From assembly GCF_056746865.1 (NCBI RefSeq), contig NZ_CM163382.1: a DNA stretch of 64,000 nt. One strand, given 5' to 3'. The notes under the pieces were generated by a model. That model saw only the letters and a list, made by a program, of their open reading frames with translations. It did not search any database and was not told the DNA's origin. A program made the translations under genes and the position numbers. Below, piece by piece: positions 10,603-53,871 of this stretch; position 1 is the first letter of the stretch, and every line of letters starts with the position of its first letter.

Positions 10603-12845
<2,243 letters not shown>

Positions 12846-14532: not shown

Positions 14533-15845
<1,313 letters not shown>

Positions 15846-26318: not shown

Positions 26319-27860
<1,542 letters not shown>

Positions 27861-27928
27861 CCTTAAAGAATCGTTCTTTGAAGTGCTCACACAGATTGTC
27901 TGATGAAAATGAGCAGTAAAACCTCTAC

Positions 27929-28005
<77 letters not shown>

Positions 28006-28047
28006 AATTTGCACCGCAAATTTGAAGAGGTTTTAACTACATGTTAT

Positions 28048-28123
28048 GGGGCTATAGCTCAGCTGGGAGAGCGCCTGCTTTGCACGCAGGAGGTCTGCGG
28101 TTCGATCCCGCATAGCTCCACCA
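28048..28123 (+). tRNA. alaT: tRNA-Ala (TGC anticodon)
   Basis: GGGGCTATAGCTCAGCTGGGAGAGC...CTTTGCA...GCTCCACCA in the 16S-23S spacer. Confidence 0.95.
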
Positions 28124-28306
28124 TCTCTGTAGTGATTAAATAAAAAATACTTCAGAGTGTACCTGCAAAGGTTCACTGCGAAGTTTTGCTCTTTAAAAAT
28201 CTGGATCAAGCTGAAAATTGAAACACTGAACAACGAAAGTTGTTCGTGAGTCTCTCAAATTTTCGCAACACGATGATGAATCGAAAGAAACATCTTCGGG
28301 TTGTGA

Positions 28307-31208
<2,902 letters not shown>

Positions 31209-31300
31209 ACAACGCCGAAGCTGTTTTGGCGGATTGAGAGAAGATTTTCAGCCTGATACAGATTAAATCAGAACGCAGAAGCGGTCTGATAAACAGAATT

Positions 31301-31420
31301 TGCCTGGCGGCCTTAGCGCGGTGGTCCCACCTGACCCCATGCCGAACTCAGAAGTGAAACGCCGTAGCGCCGATGGTAGTGTGGGGTCTCCCCATGCGAG
31401 AGTAGGGAACTGCCAGGCAT
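31301..31420 (+). rRNA. rrfA: 5S ribosomal RNA
   Basis: TGCCTGGCGGCC...GGGAACTGCCAGGCAT, 120 nt. Confidence 0.97.
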
Positions 31421-40367: not shown

Positions 40368-40514
40368 GATTCGCCTGAACATGCCCTTTTTTCGTAAGTA
40401 AGCAACATAAGCTGTCACGTTTTGTGATGGCTATTAGAAATTCCTATGCAACAACTGAAAAAAAATTACAAAAAGTGCTTTCTGAACTGAACAAAAAAGA
40501 GTAAAGTTAGTCGC

Positions 40515-40623
40515 GTAGGGTACAGAGGTAAGATGTTCTATCTTTCAGACCTTTTACTTCACGTAATCGGATTTGGCTGAATATTTTAGCCGCCCCAGTC
40601 AGTAATGACTGGGGCGTTTTTTA
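40515..40623 (+). ncRNA. spf: Spot 42 small regulatory RNA
   Basis: GTAGGGTACAGAGGTAAGATGTTCTATCTTTCAGACCTTTTACTTCACGTAATCGGATTTGGCTG... ending in terminator GCCCCAGTCAGTAATGACTGGGGCGTTTTTT; recognised by sequence. Confidence 0.92.
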
Positions 40624-41651: not shown

Positions 41652-41896
41652 ATAGAGCGAGGACGCTAACAGGAACAATGACTCAGGATGAGGGTCAGGA
41701 GCGCCAGGAGGCGAAGACAGAGGATTGTCAGGAAGACAAACGTCCGGAGACGTAATTAAACGGAAATGGAATCAACACGGATTGTTCCGGCTAATGGAAA
41801 AACAGGGTGTGTTGGCGGCCTGCAAGGATTGTAAGACCCGTTAAGGGTTATGAGTCAGGAAAAAAGGCGACAGAGTAATCTGTCGCCTTTTTTCTT
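41652..41896 (+). ncRNA. csrC: CsrC small RNA (CsrA-sequestering)
   Basis: ATAGAGCGAGGACGCTAACAGGAACAATGACTCAGGATGAGGGTCAGGAGCGCCAGGAGG...; dense AGGA/CAGGA motifs; intrinsic terminator GGCGACAGAGTAATCTGTCGCCTTTTTT at 3' end. Confidence 0.88.
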
Positions 41897-41962
41897 TGCT
41901 TGCTTTCTGTTAGATTCCGCCGCAAATCTATACTGAATAAAACGGCTAAAAGACGAACCATT

Positions 41963-44445: not shown

Positions 44446-45855
44446 TCACTCCATCCCCAGCTCTTTTAACTTACGCGTCAGAGTGTTGCGGCCCCAGCCG
44501 AGTAGCCGCGCCGCTTCCTGTTTATGCCCCTGCGTATGTCGCAATGCGGTTGTCAGTAAAGTCCGCTCCAGCTCAGGCTGCGCTTCGGAAAGCAGATTTT
44601 GATGACCGGAACGCAGCGCCCTGTCTGCCCACTGCGCTAACAGCGTCGCCCAACTGTCCGGTTGCATATGCGAAGTACTCTCCGCAACCGTTGACTCAAA
44701 CAGTTCGCTGGGCAAATCCTGAATCAACACTTCCTGTCCGGCAGCCATCACCGTTAGCCAGCGACAGGTGTTTTCCAGCTGGCGTACGTTACCCGGCCAT
44801 GCCAGACGCGTCAGCGCGGCTTCGGTTTCCGGATGCAGCAACTTCGCTTCTACGCCCAGCTCGCGCGCGGCAACCTGTAAAAAATGACGTGCCAGACGGG
44901 GAATATCTTCCCGACGCTCACGCAGTGGCGGCAGATGAACGCGGATGACGTTCAGGCGGTGGAACAGATCCTCACGGAACTTACCTTCCTGCACCCGCTG
45001 TTCAAGATTCTGGTGAGTGGCAGCGATAATCCGCACATCCACTTTCACCGGCGCATAGCCGCCAACGCGATAAAACTGACCGTCTGCCAGCACGCGCAGC
45101 AAACGCGTCTGCACATCCAGCGGCATATCACCAATTTCGTCGAGAAATAACGTGCCGCCATCGGCCTGTTCAAAACGCCCCTGACGAATGGTGTTCGCGC
45201 CAGTAAACGCGCCTTTCTCGTGACCAAACAGTTCTGATTCGATCAAATCCTTCGGGATAGCCGCCATATTCAGCGCGATAAATGGCGCTTTGGCTCGCGG
45301 ACTGTGGCGATGCAGGGCATGAGCGACCAGTTCTTTACCGGTGCCGGATTCGCCGTTAATCAGCACGCTAATAGAAGAACGCGAAAGCCGACCGATAATA
45401 CGGAACACGTCCTGCATGGCTGGCGCTTCGCCGATGATATCGGTCGTTGGGCCGTTAAGCTGAACATTACGCGGCTGCTGCTGTTCCTGGTAATGACTGA
45501 TGGCGCGCTCAACCAGCGCGACGGCTTCGTCGATATCAAACGGTTTGGGCAGATAATCAAACGCCCCTTGTTGATAGGCGCTGACGGCAGCATCCAGATC
45601 GGAATGTGCGGTCATAATGATGACCGGAAGCATCGGATGGCGCTGTTTAATCTGCTTGAGCAGCGCCAGCCCGTCCATTCCCGGCATACGGATATCTGAA
45701 AGCAGCACATCCGGCGTTTTGCTCGCCAGCGCCTCCAGTACCTCCGCGCCGTTCTCAAATGTCGTACAGGTTAAACCCGCTCCAGCGAGCGCACGTTCAA
45801 GCACCCAACGGATGGAACTATCGTCATCGACTACCCAGACTATCCCTCGTTGCAT
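44446..45855 (-). CDS. glnG: Nitrogen regulation response regulator NtrC (sigma54 activator)
   Basis: ORF 44446-45915; true start ATG 45853-45855 ([23 protein letters not shown]...), 469 aa; GAFTGA motif present. Confidence 0.95.
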
Positions 45856-45866
45856 AAACGTCACCT

Positions 45867-46916
45867 TTATTTCCTGATAGGCAGGTAAACCGAGAACTCG
45901 GTATGACCTGGCCAACTGGTAAATTCAATTTTGCCTGAATGCTGATCAATCAAATTACGGGCGATGGATAAGCCAAGCCCGGTGCCACCTTCGCGGCCGC
46001 TGACCATCGGGTAAAACAGCGTATCCTGCAAATGAGGCGGAATACCTGGCCCGTTATCTTCCACATCAATTCGCGCCGCCAGCCGATAACGCTCGCCGTG
46101 TAAGGTCAGTTGGAAAGCTGTGCGGGTACGCAGAATGATTTCACCACCCTCTGGCCCCAGCGCCTGTAGCGCATTGCGCACAATATTCAGGAGCACTTGC
46201 TCAATTTGATCCGGGTCGTGCGCCAGTTCCGGCAGGCTGGGGTCGTAATCACGAATCAACCGCACGTTGTCCGGCAGTTCCATCGACACCAGCGTCACCA
46301 CGCGTTCAGCCACTTTATGAATACTTTCGGTAACGCGCGTACCGGGCAGTTGCGGTCCCAACAGACGGTCGACCAGATTTCGCAGCCGGTCCGCCTGTTC
46401 GATAATAACTTTGGTATATTCGAGTAGTGACGGGTCAGGTAATGCTTTGCTGAGCAGCTGCGCCGCGCCACGTAAACCGCCAAGCGGATTTTTAATCTCA
46501 TGTGCCAGGCCGCGCACTAAATCACGGGCAGCAACCTGCTGGGCGTGCTGTAGCTGTTCCTGACTTAAGCGGCGCTGGTTATCCATCGGTGCCATCTCCA
46601 GCAGGATCATGCCGTCCGGCATACGCTGGGCCGTCACAGAAAGGATATGCGAGCGCCCGTCGATGACCAGCGTCACTTCGTTATCGGTAAAACCTTGCCC
46701 CGCCTCCAGACTTTCTTGCATCAGCTCGATATTTAATGAGAAGTAGCTCAACAGTTCCGGTAACGGTGTACCAAACAATTTGCGGGAGCTTTGGGCGAGC
46801 AGTTGTTGCGCGGCGGGGTTGGCGTAATGGATCGCCAGGTTGTCATCGATTAACAAAATACTGTTAATCAGCGAGTTGAGGATCTGCCCAGCATCGGGCT
46901 GCGTGCCTGTTGCCAT
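45867..46916 (-). CDS. glnL: Nitrogen regulation sensor histidine kinase NtrB
   Basis: 349-aa ORF with H-box ([12 protein letters not shown]) matching NtrB. Confidence 0.95.
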
Positions 46917-46937
46917 AAAGCAGTCTCCTGAACAGGT

Positions 46938-46954
46938 TGCACCATTTTAGTGCA
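46938..46954. promoter_or_regulatory. NtrC binding site overlapping the glnL promoter
   Basis: Palindrome TGCACCATTTTAGTGCA (NtrC consensus TGCACC-N5-GGTGCA) 22 bp upstream of the glnL start. Confidence 0.7.
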
Positions 46955-47049
46955 TTATAGCTTTTTACGGATAAAAAGCGCGAAGCATCAGAGAATTGAC
47001 GGAGAAAAAAGCCCATGCAGAGATGGGCTGAAAGTTTCCACGGCAACTA

Positions 47050-47075
47050 AATCCCGGCGTTGTTGCGCCGGGTAG
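47050..47075 (-). terminator. glnA terminator hairpin
   Basis: Inverted repeat cccggcg-ttgttg-cgccggg just downstream of the glnA stop on the minus strand. Confidence 0.65.
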
Positions 47076-47089
47076 TACAACTTCAACTA

Positions 47090-48499
47090 TTAGACGCTGT
47101 AGTACAGCTCAAACTCTACCGGATGCGGAGTCATACGCACGCGGTCATCTTCTTCGCGACGCAGAGCGATGTACGCATCGATCGCTTCATCAGTGAACAC
47201 GCCACCGGCTTTCAGGAACTCGCGGTCCAGATCCAGTTCGTTCAGTGCTTCTTCCAGAGAGCCTGCAACTTGTGGGATCTCTTTCGCTTCTTCTGGCGGC
47301 AGGTCATACAGGTTTTTGTCCATGGCTTCGCCCGGATGGATCTTGTTCTTGATACCATCAAGACCGGCCATCAGCAGGGCAGCAAAGCACAGGTACGGGT
47401 TAGCCGCCGGATCCGGGAAACGTACTTCGATACGACGTGCTTTCGGAGAAGAAACCACCGGAATACGGATAGACGCAGAACGGTTGCGTGCAGAGTAAGC
47501 CAGCATTACCGGTGCTTCGTAGCCCGGGACCAGACGCTTATAAGAGTTGGTGGTCGGGTTTGCCAGGGCGTTAATCGCTTTAGCGTGTTTGATTACGCCG
47601 CCAATGTAGTACAGCGCCTGCTCAGACAGACCTGCGTATTTGTCGCCTGCGAACAGGTTAACGCCGTTTTTAGACAGAGACATGTGGCAGTGCATACCGG
47701 AGCCGTTATCACCGAACATCGGTTTTGGCATAAAGGTCGCGGTTTTACCGAAGCGGTGCGCTACGTTGTGCACAACATATTTGTAGATCTGAATTTCGTC
47801 AGCTTTTTTGGTCATGGTATTGAAGCGGGTAGCCACTTCGTTCTGACCAGCAGTCGCTACTTCGTGGTGATGGGCTTCAACCACCAGACCCATCTGTTCC
47901 ATCACCAGACACATTTCAGAACGAATATCCTGAGCAGAGTCTACCGGCGGAACCGGGAAGTAACCGCCTTTCACTGCCGGACGGTGACCTTTGTTACCAC
48001 CTTCGTATTGGGTGGAGGAGTTCCATGCGCCTTCGATATCGTCGATAGCAACGTGGGAACCGGAGATAGAAGATCCGAAACGGATGTCATCGAACAGGAA
48101 GAATTCAGGTTCTGGCCCGAACAGTACGGTGTCGGCAATGCCAGTGGAACGCAGGTAATCTTCGGCGCGCTTCGCAATAGAGCGCGGGTCACGGTCATAG
48201 CCTTGCAGGGTGCCAGGTTCAAGGATGTCGCAACGGATAATCAGGGTAGAATCGGCGAAGAACGGGTCAATCACTGCGGTGGACGCGTCTGGCATCAGCA
48301 CCATGTCGGATTCGTTAATGCCTTTCCAGCCGCCAATCGAGGAGCCGTCAAACATTTTGCCTTCTTCGAAGAATTCAGCATTCACCTGATGAGCAGGGAT
48401 AGTGACGTGCTGTTCTTTACCTTTGGTATCGGTGAAGCGCAAATCAACAAACTTCACTTCGTGCTCGTTCAGCATCGTCAGTACGTGTTCAGCGGACAT
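47090..48499 (-). CDS. glnA: Glutamine synthetase
   Basis: 469-aa [38 protein letters not shown]... matching GlnA. Confidence 0.98.
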
Positions 48500-48582
48500 A
48501 CTTTAACTCTCCTGGATTGGTCATGGTCGTCGTGGTAACGAAATCTGCAATTATTTTGGCCGTGTCGCCGTAAAAAAGATAA

Positions 48583-48720
48583 AGCGAAATCTGTGCCAAC
48601 TTTTAAATTGCCCCTAAAAGGCGTTATCATGCTTAACATCGTGCAAAAGGGCTGCACCATGATATGAATGTTGCACCAATATAGTGCTTCAATGGAAACA
48701 TTAAGCACCATATTGGTGCA
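48583..48720 (-). promoter_or_regulatory. glnAp2 sigma54 promoter (TTGGCACAGATTTCGCT at 48583-48599, minus strand) with upstream NtrC enhancer sites (48672-48687 and 48705-48720)
   Basis: -24 GG / -12 GC element on the glnA strand; palindromes TGCACCAATATAGTGC and GCACCATATTGGTGCA further upstream. Confidence 0.8.
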
Positions 48721-48871
48721 ATGACCTTTGGATAACCCTTTTTATGCTCCGTGAAAGCGATCACAAAGGGACTCTGCAATACTTGTTTGCGGAGGATGTT
48801 TGTGATCCTGTTTTGTAGTGCGATTAATCCGTGTACAATAACGCGCTATTTCTAATGCCTGAGGCAAAGTT

Positions 48872-50695
48872 GTGATCGAAAAATTGCGTAATATCGCCAT
48901 CATCGCGCACGTAGACCATGGTAAAACCACCCTGGTAGACAAGCTGCTCCAACAATCCGGTACGTTCGACTCTCGTGCCGAAACCCAAGAGCGCGTGATG
49001 GACTCCAACGATTTGGAGAAAGAGCGTGGGATTACCATCCTCGCGAAAAACACCGCTATCAAATGGAATGATTACCGTATCAACATCGTTGATACCCCGG
49101 GGCACGCCGACTTCGGTGGTGAAGTTGAACGTGTAATGTCCATGGTAGACTCAGTGCTGCTGGTGGTTGACGCATTTGACGGCCCGATGCCGCAAACGCG
49201 CTTCGTAACCAAAAAAGCGTTTGCTTACGGCCTGAAGCCGATTGTTGTTATCAACAAAGTTGACCGCCCTGGCGCGCGTCCTGATTGGGTTGTGGATCAG
49301 GTATTCGATCTGTTCGTTAACCTCGACGCGACCGACGAGCAGCTGGACTTCCCGATCGTTTACGCTTCTGCGCTGAACGGTATCGCGGGTCTGGACCACG
49401 AAGATATGGCGGAAGACATGACCCCGCTGTATCAGGCGATTGTTGACCACGTTCCTGCGCCGGACGTTGACCTTGACGGTCCGTTCCAGATGCAGATTTC
49501 TCAGCTCGATTACAACAGCTATGTTGGCGTTATCGGCATTGGCCGCATCAAGCGCGGTAAAGTGAAGCCGAACCAGCAGGTCACTATCATCGATAGCGAA
49601 GGCAAAACCCGTAACGCGAAAGTCGGTAAAGTGCTGGGCCACCTCGGTCTGGAACGTATTGAAACCGATCTGGCGGAAGCTGGCGATATCGTGGCGATCA
49701 CGGGCCTGGGCGAACTGAACATTTCTGACACCGTTTGCGACACGCAAAACGTTGAAGCGCTGCCGGCACTCTCCGTTGATGAGCCGACCGTTTCTATGTT
49801 CTTCTGCGTTAACACCTCGCCGTTCTGCGGTAAAGAAGGTAAGTTCGTAACGTCTCGTCAGATCCTGGATCGTCTGAACAAAGAACTGGTACACAACGTT
49901 GCGCTGCGCGTAGAAGAAACCGAAGACGCCGATGCGTTCCGCGTTTCTGGTCGTGGCGAACTGCACCTGTCTGTTCTTATCGAAAACATGCGTCGTGAAG
50001 GTTTCGAACTGGCGGTATCCCGTCCGAAAGTAATCTTCCGTGAAATCGACGGTCGTAAACAAGAGCCGTATGAAAACGTGACGCTGGACGTTGAAGAACA
50101 GCATCAGGGTTCTGTGATGCAGGCGCTGGGCGAACGTAAAGGCGACCTGAAAAACATGAATCCAGACGGTAAAGGCCGCGTACGTCTCGACTACGTGATC
50201 CCAAGCCGTGGTCTGATTGGCTTCCGTTCTGAGTTCATGACCATGACTTCCGGTACTGGTCTGCTGTACTCCACCTTCAGCCACTACGACGACGTACGTC
50301 CGGGTGAAGTGGGTCAGCGTCAGAACGGCGTACTGATCTCTAACGGTCAGGGTAAAGCGGTAGCGTTCGCGCTGTTCGGTCTGCAGGATCGCGGTAAGCT
50401 GTTCCTCGGTCACGGTGCAGAAGTTTACGAAGGTCAGATTATCGGTATTCACAGCCGCTCTAACGACCTGACTGTAAACTGCCTGACCGGTAAGAAACTG
50501 ACCAACATGCGTGCTTCCGGTACTGACGAAGCCGTTGTTCTGGTTCCGCCTATCCGCATGACTCTGGAACAAGCTCTGGAGTTCATCGATGATGACGAAC
50601 TGGTAGAAGTGACTCCAACCTCTATCCGTATTCGTAAACGTCACCTGACGGAAAACGATCGTCGCCGTGCCAACCGCGCACCGAAAGACGATTAA
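48872..50695 (+). CDS. typA: Ribosome-associated translational GTPase BipA/TypA
   Basis: 607-aa ORF with GTG start and G1 motif [10 protein letters not shown]; EF-G-like. Confidence 0.96.

Positions 50696-51629: not shown

Positions 51630-53871
<2,242 letters not shown>

What the first reader, a model, noticed from the sequence alone, without database searches (positions are those of the whole stretch)
48583..48720. sigma54 promoter plus NtrC enhancer palindromes for glnA, and a matching NtrC site on glnL
On the glnA strand there is a TTGGCACAGATTTCGCT -24/-12 element, with NtrC-type palindromes (TGCACCAATATAGTGC, GCACCATATTGGTGCA) 70-130 bp further upstream. A third palindrome TGCACCATTTTAGTGCA sits 22 bp upstream of the glnL start (46938-46954). 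Together these give a complete, readable nitrogen-regulation circuit for glnALG.
Basis: partly seen in the sequence, partly recalled or inferred. Interest (0 to 1): 0.3.

Follow-up and report, generated by a model that had tools for sequence, protein, structure and literature searches.

The report
Textbook glnALG nitrogen-control region of E. coli

Summary
The window is E. coli chromosome (typA/bipA > < glnA-glnL-glnG). All four quoted motifs are at the stated coordinates. The sigma-54 element TTGGCACAGATTTCGCT (48583-48599, minus strand) is the same 17-mer that binds sigma-54 in vivo in K-12. It puts +1 at 48572, 73 nt before the glnA ATG.

With that +1, the two palindromes are centred at exactly -140 and -108, the published NtrC enhancer positions. 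The half-sites are at least 95% conserved in 72 distinct Enterobacterales promoters that were retrieved using the sigma-54 core alone.

The third palindrome (46938-46954) is a real, conserved NtrC site. It shares a base with a TATAAT, and no sigma-54 element precedes glnL. It is therefore the operator that represses the sigma-70 promoter glnLp, not an enhancer.

- glnAp1 and its CRP site
- the three low-affinity "governor" NtrC sites
- the glnA terminator and the GlnZ sRNA

Verdict: already known, low interest.

The only mildly new item is a natural allele. It is shared with O157:H7 and carried by about 41% of complete E. coli genomes. It replaces the conserved GGTGC of low-affinity site IV with GTTAA, which might weaken the governor. 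This was not tested.

The parts
48583..48599 (-). glnAp2 sigma-54 core promoter TTGGCACAGATTTCGCT (GG at 48596-48597 = -25/-24; GC at 48584-48585 = -13/-12)
   Evidence: Same 17-mer as ChIP-seq peak OS37 in K-12. PWM score 15.9 bits. Exact core found in 92 stretches of Enterobacterales genomes.
48572..48572 (-). Inferred glnAp2 transcription start (+1), giving a 73-nt leader to the glnA ATG at 48499
   Evidence: Inferred from -12 spacing. Agrees with 'distance 73' in PMC4591121 Table 1 and makes the NtrC site centres fall at exactly -140 and -108.
48704..48720 (.). NtrC high-affinity enhancer site I (TGCACCAATATGGTGCT), centre 48712 = -140. Also lies over the glnAp1 region.
   Evidence: Half-sites invariant in 72/72 distinct promoters. 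Published at -140. gSELEX NtrC peak maps to about 48686.
48672..48688 (.). NtrC high-affinity enhancer site II (AGCACTATATTGGTGCA), centre 48680 = -108, 32 bp (about 3 helical turns) from site I
   Evidence: Published at -108.
48653..48669 (.). Low-affinity NtrC site III (ATTCATATCATGGTGCA), centre -89. Right half TGGTGCA is conserved. The window differs from K-12 at 48664 and 48660.
   Evidence: Published centre -89. Conservation. Mismatch count 6 here against 5 in K-12.
48630..48646 (.). Low-affinity NtrC site IV (TTGCACGATGTTAAGCA), centre about -66. Left half TTGCAC is conserved. The right half is altered here (K-12 has GGTGCGCA).
   Evidence: Published centre -66..
48609..48625 (.). Low-affinity NtrC site V region (AACGCCTTTTAGGGGCA), centre -45, identical to K-12
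   Evidence: Published centre -45..
48747..48768 (.). CRP-type site CTTTGTGATCGCTTTCACGGAG (TGTGA-N6-TCACG) upstream of glnAp1
   Evidence: At least 95% conserved across species. A classical CRP site upstream of glnAp1 is described in PMC1865078.
48687..48687 (-). Approximate glnAp1 (sigma-70) start, 115 bp upstream of glnAp2. The hexamers could not be assigned from sequence.
   Evidence: Position taken from PMC1865078. No sigma-70 consensus match on this strand.
47090..48499 (-). glnA coding sequence (469 aa)
47005..47089 (-). glnA 3'UTR of 85 nt, the 'O157-type' GlnZ sRNA, ending in the hairpin 47010-47029 plus a U-tract. This moderate terminator sets read-through into glnLG.
   Evidence: Terminator conserved. 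Weak Ysr49 match.
46954..46959 (-). TATAAT, the -10 hexamer of the sigma-70 promoter glnLp. Its last T is the first T of the NtrC box.
   Evidence: Conserved, with TATAAT in this register in 35 of 68 distinct sequences. glnLp is described as a sigma-70 promoter repressed by NtrC.
46938..46954 (.). NtrC operator of glnLp (TGCACTAAAATGGTGCA), 21 nt before the glnL ATG
   Evidence: Up to 2 mismatches in 64 of 68 distinct sequences. NtrC ChIP-seq peak 'glnLG', 9.4-fold. No sigma-54 element nearby.
45867..46916 (-). glnL (NtrB sensor kinase, 349 aa)
44446..45855 (-). glnG (NtrC, 469 aa), the protein that binds all the boxes above and so closes the feedback loops

Best explanation
This is the native regulatory apparatus of the E. 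coli glnALG operon.

Activation at glnAp2: RNA polymerase with sigma-54 sits in a closed complex on the -24/-12 element (48583-48599). When nitrogen is scarce, NtrB phosphorylates NtrC. NtrC~P oligomerises on the two high-affinity dyads at -140 and -108, loops the intervening DNA without IHF, and uses ATP hydrolysis to open the promoter. That drives glnA and, by read-through of the moderate glnA terminator, glnL and glnG. This is positive autoregulation.

Repression by the same dyads: sites I and II overlap the weak CRP-activated sigma-70 promoter glnAp1 and shut it off.

The governor: three low-affinity NtrC sites at -89, -66 and -45 modulate output and cap it at high NtrC~P.

The glnL site: the third dyad (46938-46954) overlaps the -10/start region of the sigma-70 promoter glnLp and acts as an operator. 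It keeps basal NtrB/NtrC synthesis under negative autoregulation.

What is shown here: motif presence, exact positional agreement with the literature, PWM score, cross-species conservation, and the absence of a sigma-54 element at glnL. What is taken from published experiments on K-12: binding, activation and repression. What is inferred for this strain: that it behaves the same way. The promoter region differs from K-12 at 6 positions, none of them in the sigma-54 core or in the half-sites of sites I and II.
For: Identity of the locus:
- The window is E. coli typA-glnA-glnL and matches 5425 of 5426 complete genomes.
- In 48560-48730 it differs from K-12 at only 6 positions, none in the sigma-54 core or the half-sites of sites I and II.

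Positions:
- Site centres fall at -140 and -108 with a 73-nt leader, matching PMC1865078 and PMC4591121 Table 1, entry OS37.

Sigma-54 element:
- PWM score 15.9 bits, better than 106 of 134 ChIP-bound sites.
- glnA is the gene most induced by rpoN overexpression (log2 6.9), followed by glnL (4.0) and glnG (3.5).

NtrC binding:
- NtrC ChIP-seq peaks at glnALG (71-fold) and glnLG (9.4-fold).
- gSELEX NtrC peak at 97% intensity maps to window position about 48686.

Conservation:
- The glnL dyad has up to 2 mismatches in 64 of 68 sequences and abuts TATAAT.

Other:
- The best sigma-54 PWM score upstream of glnL is 6.0 bits.
- The literature states that glnAp1 and glnLp are sigma-70 promoters repressed by NtrC, gives the governor sites at -89/-66/-45, and reports IHF independence.
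- The joint chance expectation is about 2.5e-6 per window.
Against: Nothing contradicts it. The caveats are:
- No experiment was done on this strain.
- The primary mapping papers for glnAp1 and glnLp were not readable. Their exact starts and hexamers are therefore not verified, and the sigma-70 consensus scan found neither promoter.
- The sigma-54 motif alone is not statistically exceptional in 64 kb.
- The called NtrC ChIP-seq interval for glnALG maps to window 48503-48583, about 90-200 bp downstream of the dyads. That is within ChIP resolution but not centred on them.
- This strain's low-affinity sites III and IV diverge from K-12, so governor behaviour may differ in degree.
Confidence: 0.97

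Rival explanations
1. All three dyads are activating enhancer sites. On this reading the glnL-proximal dyad drives a separate NtrC/sigma-54-dependent promoter for glnLG.
For: The dyad is as good a match to the NtrC box as sites I and II, with 1 mismatch. glnL and glnG rise when sigma-54 is overexpressed.
Against: - No sigma-54-like element lies between the glnA 3' end and glnL. The best score is 6.0 bits, below every ChIP-bound site.
- No sigma-54 ChIP peak is listed there.
- The dyad is only 21 nt from the ATG and shares a base with a conserved TATAAT, which is operator geometry.
- The literature describes glnLp as sigma-70-dependent and NtrC-repressed.
- The rise in glnLG is explained by read-through from glnAp2.
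Confidence: 0.02
2. The palindromes at 48672-48720 exist mainly as stems of the plus-strand RNA ES222 (Rfam RF02755, 48683-48790), a typA/bipA leader or sRNA, and not as protein-binding sites.
For: - The Rfam match scores 133 bits against a gathering score of 62.
- The plus-strand RNA folds at -33.7 kcal/mol, z = -2.45.
- The model's first hairpin pairs the GTGC half-site of site II with the GCAC half-site of site I.
Against: - Across 72 species-level sequences, the pairs formed by the NtrC half-sites are kept only because those bases never change. There is no covariation.
- Helices that involve non-site sequence break. Pairs with neither base in a protein site are 57% canonical on average, and several pairs hold in only 14-32% of sequences.
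- The conservation pattern is invariant half-sites with a variable 3-bp spacer, which is the signature of a dimeric protein.
- The same box recurs at glnL, outside ES222.
- NtrC binding there is shown by ChIP-seq and gSELEX.
- A plus-strand transcript may still exist alongside the protein sites.
Confidence: 0.02
3. The motifs are chance matches with no function.
For: The sigma-54 consensus or PWM alone is matched about as often as expected by chance. A higher-scoring PWM hit at 15208-15224 is not a known binding site.
Against: The joint arrangement is expected about 2.5e-6 times per window. The positions agree exactly with mapped sites. The half-sites are deeply conserved. In vivo binding data exist.
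Confidence: 0.001

Closest known systems
E. coli K-12 glnAp1/glnAp2-glnLp control region of glnALG (Reitzer & Magasanik; Ninfa et al.; Ueno-Nishio et al.)
   Same: It is the same locus. The sigma-54 core, 73-nt leader, half-sites of NtrC sites I and II, site V, CRP site, glnLp -10 and glnL operator are identical.
   Different: There are 6 substitutions in 48560-48730: 1 in the spacer of site I, 2 in site III and 3 in site IV. The glnA 3'UTR is the 85-nt O157 type, not the 197-nt K-12 type.
Orthologous glnA promoters of Salmonella, Klebsiella, Citrobacter, Enterobacter and other Enterobacterales
   Same: They share the exact sigma-54 core, the two high-affinity dyads at the same spacing, the CRP site, the conserved half-sites of sites III and IV, and the glnL operator abutting TATAAT.
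   Different: They differ in the dyad spacers, in the region between the CRP site and site I, in the leader and in the 3'UTR. Most of them keep GGTGC in site IV, which this window has lost.
Other NtrC/sigma-54 promoters of E. coli (glnK, glnHp2, nac, astC)
   Same: Same logic: a -24/-12 promoter with upstream NtrC dyads. glnHp1/p2 also pairs a sigma-70 promoter with a sigma-54 promoter under CRP input.
   Different: glnAp2 works without IHF. It also has the low-affinity governor sites, autoregulates its own activator genes, and has a second NtrC-repressed internal promoter.

Membership tests
Sigma-54 (RpoN) -24/-12 promoter | GG and GC doublets exactly one helical turn apart (TGGCAC-N5-TTGCW) | tested here: met
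   TGGCACAGATTTCGCT has 1 mismatch (T to C at -14). GG is at 48596-48597 and GC at 48584-48585.
Sigma-54 (RpoN) -24/-12 promoter | Score within the range of sites bound by sigma-54 in vivo | tested here: met
   15.9 bits on a PWM built from 134 other ChIP-seq sites (range 6.8-20.3, median 14.4). Rank 2 in the window.
Sigma-54 (RpoN) -24/-12 promoter | Correct strand and distance upstream of a gene | tested here: met
   Minus strand, with the predicted +1 73 nt before the glnA ATG.
Sigma-54 (RpoN) -24/-12 promoter | Sigma-54 occupancy and rpoN-dependent transcription | not testable with these tools
   Published for the identical 17-mer in K-12: ChIP-seq peak OS37 (21-fold above threshold) and glnA induced log2 6.9 on rpoN overexpression. 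Not measured in this strain.
NtrC (NRI) enhancer / upstream activating sites | 17-bp dyad TGCACCA-N3-TGGTGCA | tested here: met
   Site I has 1 mismatch and site II has 2. They are the only two-strand matches in the window apart from the glnL site.
NtrC (NRI) enhancer / upstream activating sites | Two sites on one face of the helix, about 100-140 bp upstream of the sigma-54 promoter | tested here: met
   Centres at -140 and -108, 32 bp apart. These equal the published positions.
NtrC (NRI) enhancer / upstream activating sites | Half-sites conserved in orthologous promoters with a free spacer | tested here: met
   The core half-site bases (GCAC / GTGC) of both dyads are invariant in 72/72 distinct sequences and the flanking half-site positions are nearly so. 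The spacer columns vary.
NtrC (NRI) enhancer / upstream activating sites | NtrC~P binding and activation at a distance | not testable with these tools
   Published: ChIP-seq 71-fold, EMSA, and a gSELEX peak that maps to about 48686.
NtrC operator at a sigma-70 promoter (glnLp type) | NtrC dyad overlapping the -10/start of a sigma-70 promoter | tested here: met
   TATAAT at 46954-46959 shares its last T with the dyad at 46938-46954. The arrangement is conserved. The mapped start from Ueno-Nishio 1984 could not be read.
NtrC operator at a sigma-70 promoter (glnLp type) | No sigma-54 promoter served by the site | tested here: met
   The best PWM score in 46917-47250 is 6.0 bits. No ChIP peak is listed there.
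NtrC operator at a sigma-70 promoter (glnLp type) | Repression of the promoter by NtrC | not testable with these tools
   Published. ChIP-seq peak at glnLG, 9.4-fold.
Low-affinity 'governor' NtrC sites III-V of glnAp2 | Degenerate NtrC boxes centred near -89, -66 and -45 | tested here: inconclusive
   Conserved half-sites TGGTGCA (site III) and TTGCAC (site IV) are present. The window allele is further from the consensus than K-12: site III has 6 mismatches against 5, and site IV has 7-8 against 5-6. Whether binding is retained is unknown.
CRP class I site (glnAp1) | TGTGA-N6-TCACA dyad about 60-70 bp upstream of a sigma-70 start | tested here: met
   TGTGAtcgcttTCACG matches 9 of 10 positions, is centred at 48757.5, and lies about 70.5 bp upstream of the approximate glnAp1 start. 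It is at least 95% conserved. The start itself was not verified.
Rfam RF02755 ES222 sRNA (plus strand) | Score at or above the gathering threshold | tested here: met
   133 bits against a threshold of 62.
Rfam RF02755 ES222 sRNA (plus strand) | Secondary structure maintained across relatives | tested here: not met
   Helices outside the protein-binding half-sites break in many species, and the half-site pairs never vary.

The most novel reading that the evidence does not exclude
The allele in this window is shared with O157:H7 and carried by about 41% of complete E. coli genomes. It replaces the otherwise conserved GGTGC of low-affinity NtrC site IV with GTTAA. The window also has a further change in site III. 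This may be a natural weakening of the glnAp2 'governor'. If so, it would raise the ceiling on glutamine synthetase and NtrBC expression at high NtrC~P in a large part of the species.
Probability: 0.2. Interest if true: 0.35.

Novelty: already known. Interest (0 to 1): 0.08.

Why it matters
The region is the founding example of a bacterial enhancer, of sigma-54 activation, and of combined positive and negative autoregulation. The only thing worth a specialist's attention is the common natural polymorphism in the low-affinity governor sites. It offers a ready-made test of whether those sites matter outside laboratory constructs.

Tried and rejected
- **Plain sigma-54 consensus scans**: no more matches than in shuffles, so the motif alone proves nothing. 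I replaced this with a ChIP-derived PWM plus a joint null model.
- **Sigma-70 consensus scan**: it found neither glnAp1 nor glnLp on the glnA strand, because both have poor -35 regions. I could not assign the glnAp1 hexamers.
- **Primary mapping papers and the ES222 source paper:** Ueno-Nishio 1984, Reitzer & Magasanik 1985 and Raghavan 2011 are not held. A literature search for 'ES222' found nothing relevant.
- **Independent NtrC PWM:** the gSELEX supplement does not list the NtrC boxes in usable form. I relied on the published 17-bp consensus with shuffles, cross-species conservation and published ChIP data.
- **bipA/typA promoter literature**: nothing specific found.
- **glnL dyad as an enhancer for a hidden sigma-54 promoter:** rejected.
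- **Palindromes as RNA stems of ES222:** rejected as the primary function.

Full report
**What the window is.** The 2.2 kb around the finding matches 5425 of 5426 complete E. coli genomes. It is 100% identical to several of them, including strain 118UI, and the annotated features are typA, glnA and glnL. Open reading frames and the K-12 annotation give this gene order:
- typA/bipA on the plus strand, from 48872
- glnA, 47090-48499, minus strand
- glnL, 45867-46916, minus strand
- glnG, 44446-45855, minus strand

**Checking the observation.** Every quoted string is present.
- The sigma-54 element TTGGCACAGATTTCGCT occupies 48583-48599 on the glnA strand.
- The two 'enhancer' strings were quoted as plus-strand readings, each one base short of the full 17-bp dyads at 48672-48688 and 48704-48720.
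- The third dyad is at 46938-46954. It lies 21 nt, not 22, from the glnL ATG.

**Is it more than chance?**
- The NtrC box with up to 2 mismatches gives 7 strand matches against 2.33 expected. The three sites are the only ones that match on both strands. The stricter core GCAnnAnnnTnnTGC finds only these three.
- The sigma-54 motif alone is not above chance. The consensus with up to 1 mismatch gives 3 matches against 3.4 expected.
- I built a PWM from the 134 ChIP-seq sigma-54 sites of PMC4591121, leaving out glnA. glnAp2 scores 15.9 bits, better than 106 of the 134 sites and second in the window. A score that high still occurs in about 42% of random 64-kb windows.
- The window's top hit (15208-15224, at the 3' end of ubiD) is absent from the ChIP lists. 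The context carries the weight.
- A sigma-54 hit of that quality with two NtrC boxes 60-170 nt upstream is expected about 2.5e-6 times per window. It never occurred in 30 Mb of Markov sequence.

**Agreement with mapped positions.**
- Placing the C of the -12 GC at 48584 puts +1 at 48572, which gives a 73-nt leader. PMC4591121 Table 1 lists the same 17-mer as peak OS37 for glnA, with distance 73 and 'experimentally confirmed' status.
- With that +1, the dyad centres fall at exactly -140 and -108. These are the positions given for the NtrC enhancer sites in PMC1865078.
- The published low-affinity sites at -89, -66 and -45 (PMC5159524) map to 48661, 48638 and 48617.
- The -89 site ends in the conserved TGGTGCA, and the -66 site begins at the conserved TTGCAC.
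- glnAp1 is stated to lie 115 bp upstream of glnAp2, at about 48687, inside site II.
- A near-perfect CRP dyad, TGTGAtcgcttTCACG, lies at 48750-48765, about 70 bp further upstream.

**Independent evidence from other genomes.** I scanned 100,044 species genomes for the sigma-54 core alone, TTGGCACAGATTTCGCTTT. This returned 92 stretches, almost all Enterobacterales. I aligned 72 distinct sequences covering -200 to +100.
- The core half-site bases of sites I and II are invariant in 72/72 sequences and the flanking positions are nearly so, while the 3-bp spacers vary.
- The CRP site, the TGGTGCA of site III and the TTGCAC of site IV are at least 95% conserved.
- Upstream of glnL, 64 of 68 distinct sequences have an NtrC box with up to 2 mismatches in the last 60 nt. 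It abuts a conserved TATAAT-like hexamer, and the glnA terminator is also conserved.

**Published binding data (K-12).**
- NtrC ChIP-seq gives a 71-fold peak at glnALG and a separate 9.4-fold peak at glnLG. The glnLG interval contains the K-12 copy of the operator.
- gSELEX places a 97%-intensity NtrC peak at 4,056,244 (U00096.2), which is window position about 48686, between the two dyads.
- Overexpressing rpoN induces glnA most of all genes (log2 6.9), then glnL (4.0) and glnG (3.5). This is consistent with read-through.

**How it works.** The sequence supports the established model, which also draws.
- Sigma-54 holoenzyme waits in a closed complex at glnAp2.
- NtrC~P assembled on sites I and II loops the DNA without IHF and opens the complex.
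- The same sites occlude the CRP-activated sigma-70 promoter glnAp1.
- The low-affinity sites III-V aid output at moderate NtrC~P and cap it at high NtrC~P. This is the 'governor'.
- The glnA terminator releases GlnZ and passes a fraction of transcripts into glnLG.
- The dyad at 46938-46954 shares its first T with the TATAAT at 46954-46959, and no sigma-54 element lies nearby; the best score is 6.0 bits. It therefore represses the sigma-70 promoter glnLp.
The circuit as listed is also incomplete.

**The rival raised by Rfam.** ES222 (RF02755) matches the plus strand at 48683-48790 with 133 bits.
- Its first hairpin pairs the GTGC of site II with the GCAC of site I.
- Across the 72 sequences those pairs never vary, so they say nothing either way.
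- Helices that use non-site sequence break. Some pairs hold in only 14-32% of sequences.
- The RNA may exist, for example as a typA leader. The conservation pattern, however, is that of protein sites.

**Differences from K-12.**
- The promoter region has 6 substitutions: one in the spacer of site I, two in site III and three in site IV.
- Site IV reads TTGCACGATGTTAAGCA here, against TTGCACGATGGTGCGCA in K-12.
- In the cross-species set those three columns are G51/A17/T2, G66/C4/A2 and C53/T17/A2, so this is a derived allele.
- It is nevertheless common. Over 48600-48670, about 59% of complete E. coli genomes are K-12-like and about 41% carry the GTTAA type, including O157:H7. The window's exact sequence, with an extra C to T at 48664, occurs in 117 genomes.
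- The allele moves sites III and IV further from the NtrC consensus.
- Whether this loosens the governor is untested. It is the only mildly novel lead.
- The glnA 3'UTR is the 85-nt O157-type GlnZ.

**Verdict.** The system is already known in full detail. Interest is low.

Noticed in passing
window 48630-48669: Natural allele of low-affinity NtrC sites III and IV. Site IV reads GTTAAGCA instead of the conserved GGTGCGCA, and site III has C to T at 48664 and G to A at 48660. The GTTAA type is in about 41% of complete E. coli genomes, including O157:H7. The exact window sequence is in 117 genomes.
   Followed up: partly
window 48683-48790 (+): Rfam ES222 sRNA match (133 bits) on the typA/bipA strand, overlapping NtrC site I, part of site II and the CRP site. 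Its modelled helices are largely the DNA palindromes read as RNA. Helices outside the protein sites are not maintained across species. No convincing -10 hexamer lies upstream of 48683.
   Followed up: partly
window 47005-47089 (-): The glnA 3'UTR is 85 nt, the 'O157-type' GlnZ sRNA. The conserved GCCGUGGAAACUUU stretch lies next to the terminator, not at the 5' end as in K-12. There is a weak, sub-threshold match to Yersinia Ysr49. No Rfam family reaches its gathering score there.
   Followed up: partly
window 15208-15224 (+): The best sigma-54 PWM hit in the window (CTGGCCCATATTTTGCA, 16.75 bits). It lies in the last codons of ubiD, 46 nt before fre, in sense orientation. It is absent from the high- and low-stringency sigma-54 ChIP-seq lists.
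   Followed up: partly
L094 and L095 (O157:H7 E32511; strain 3150), position equivalent to window 48590: These genomes carry an A to T change in the spacer of the sigma-54 core (TTGGCACAGTTTTCGCT). The window has the K-12 form.
   Followed up: no
window 48602-48630 (+): Sigma-70-like promoter match (TTTAAA-17-TATCAT) on the typA strand, between the glnAp2 core and site IV. It is the only such match in 46850-48900, which is no more than shuffles give.
   Followed up: no
window 48503-48583: The published NtrC ChIP-seq interval for glnALG (4056061-4056141, U00096.2) maps here, over the leader and core promoter. That is 90-200 bp downstream of the dyads. Separately, the CCCTTTT bend element (48645-48651) centres at -76 by my numbering, against the published -73.
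   Followed up: no
window 10957-11208, 26319-31418, 40505-40623, 41652-41905, 53054-53176: Other RNA genes found by Rfam: Erse sRNA, a complete rrn operon with two spacer tRNAs and StyR-44, Spot 42, CsrC, and isrC on the minus strand.
   Followed up: no
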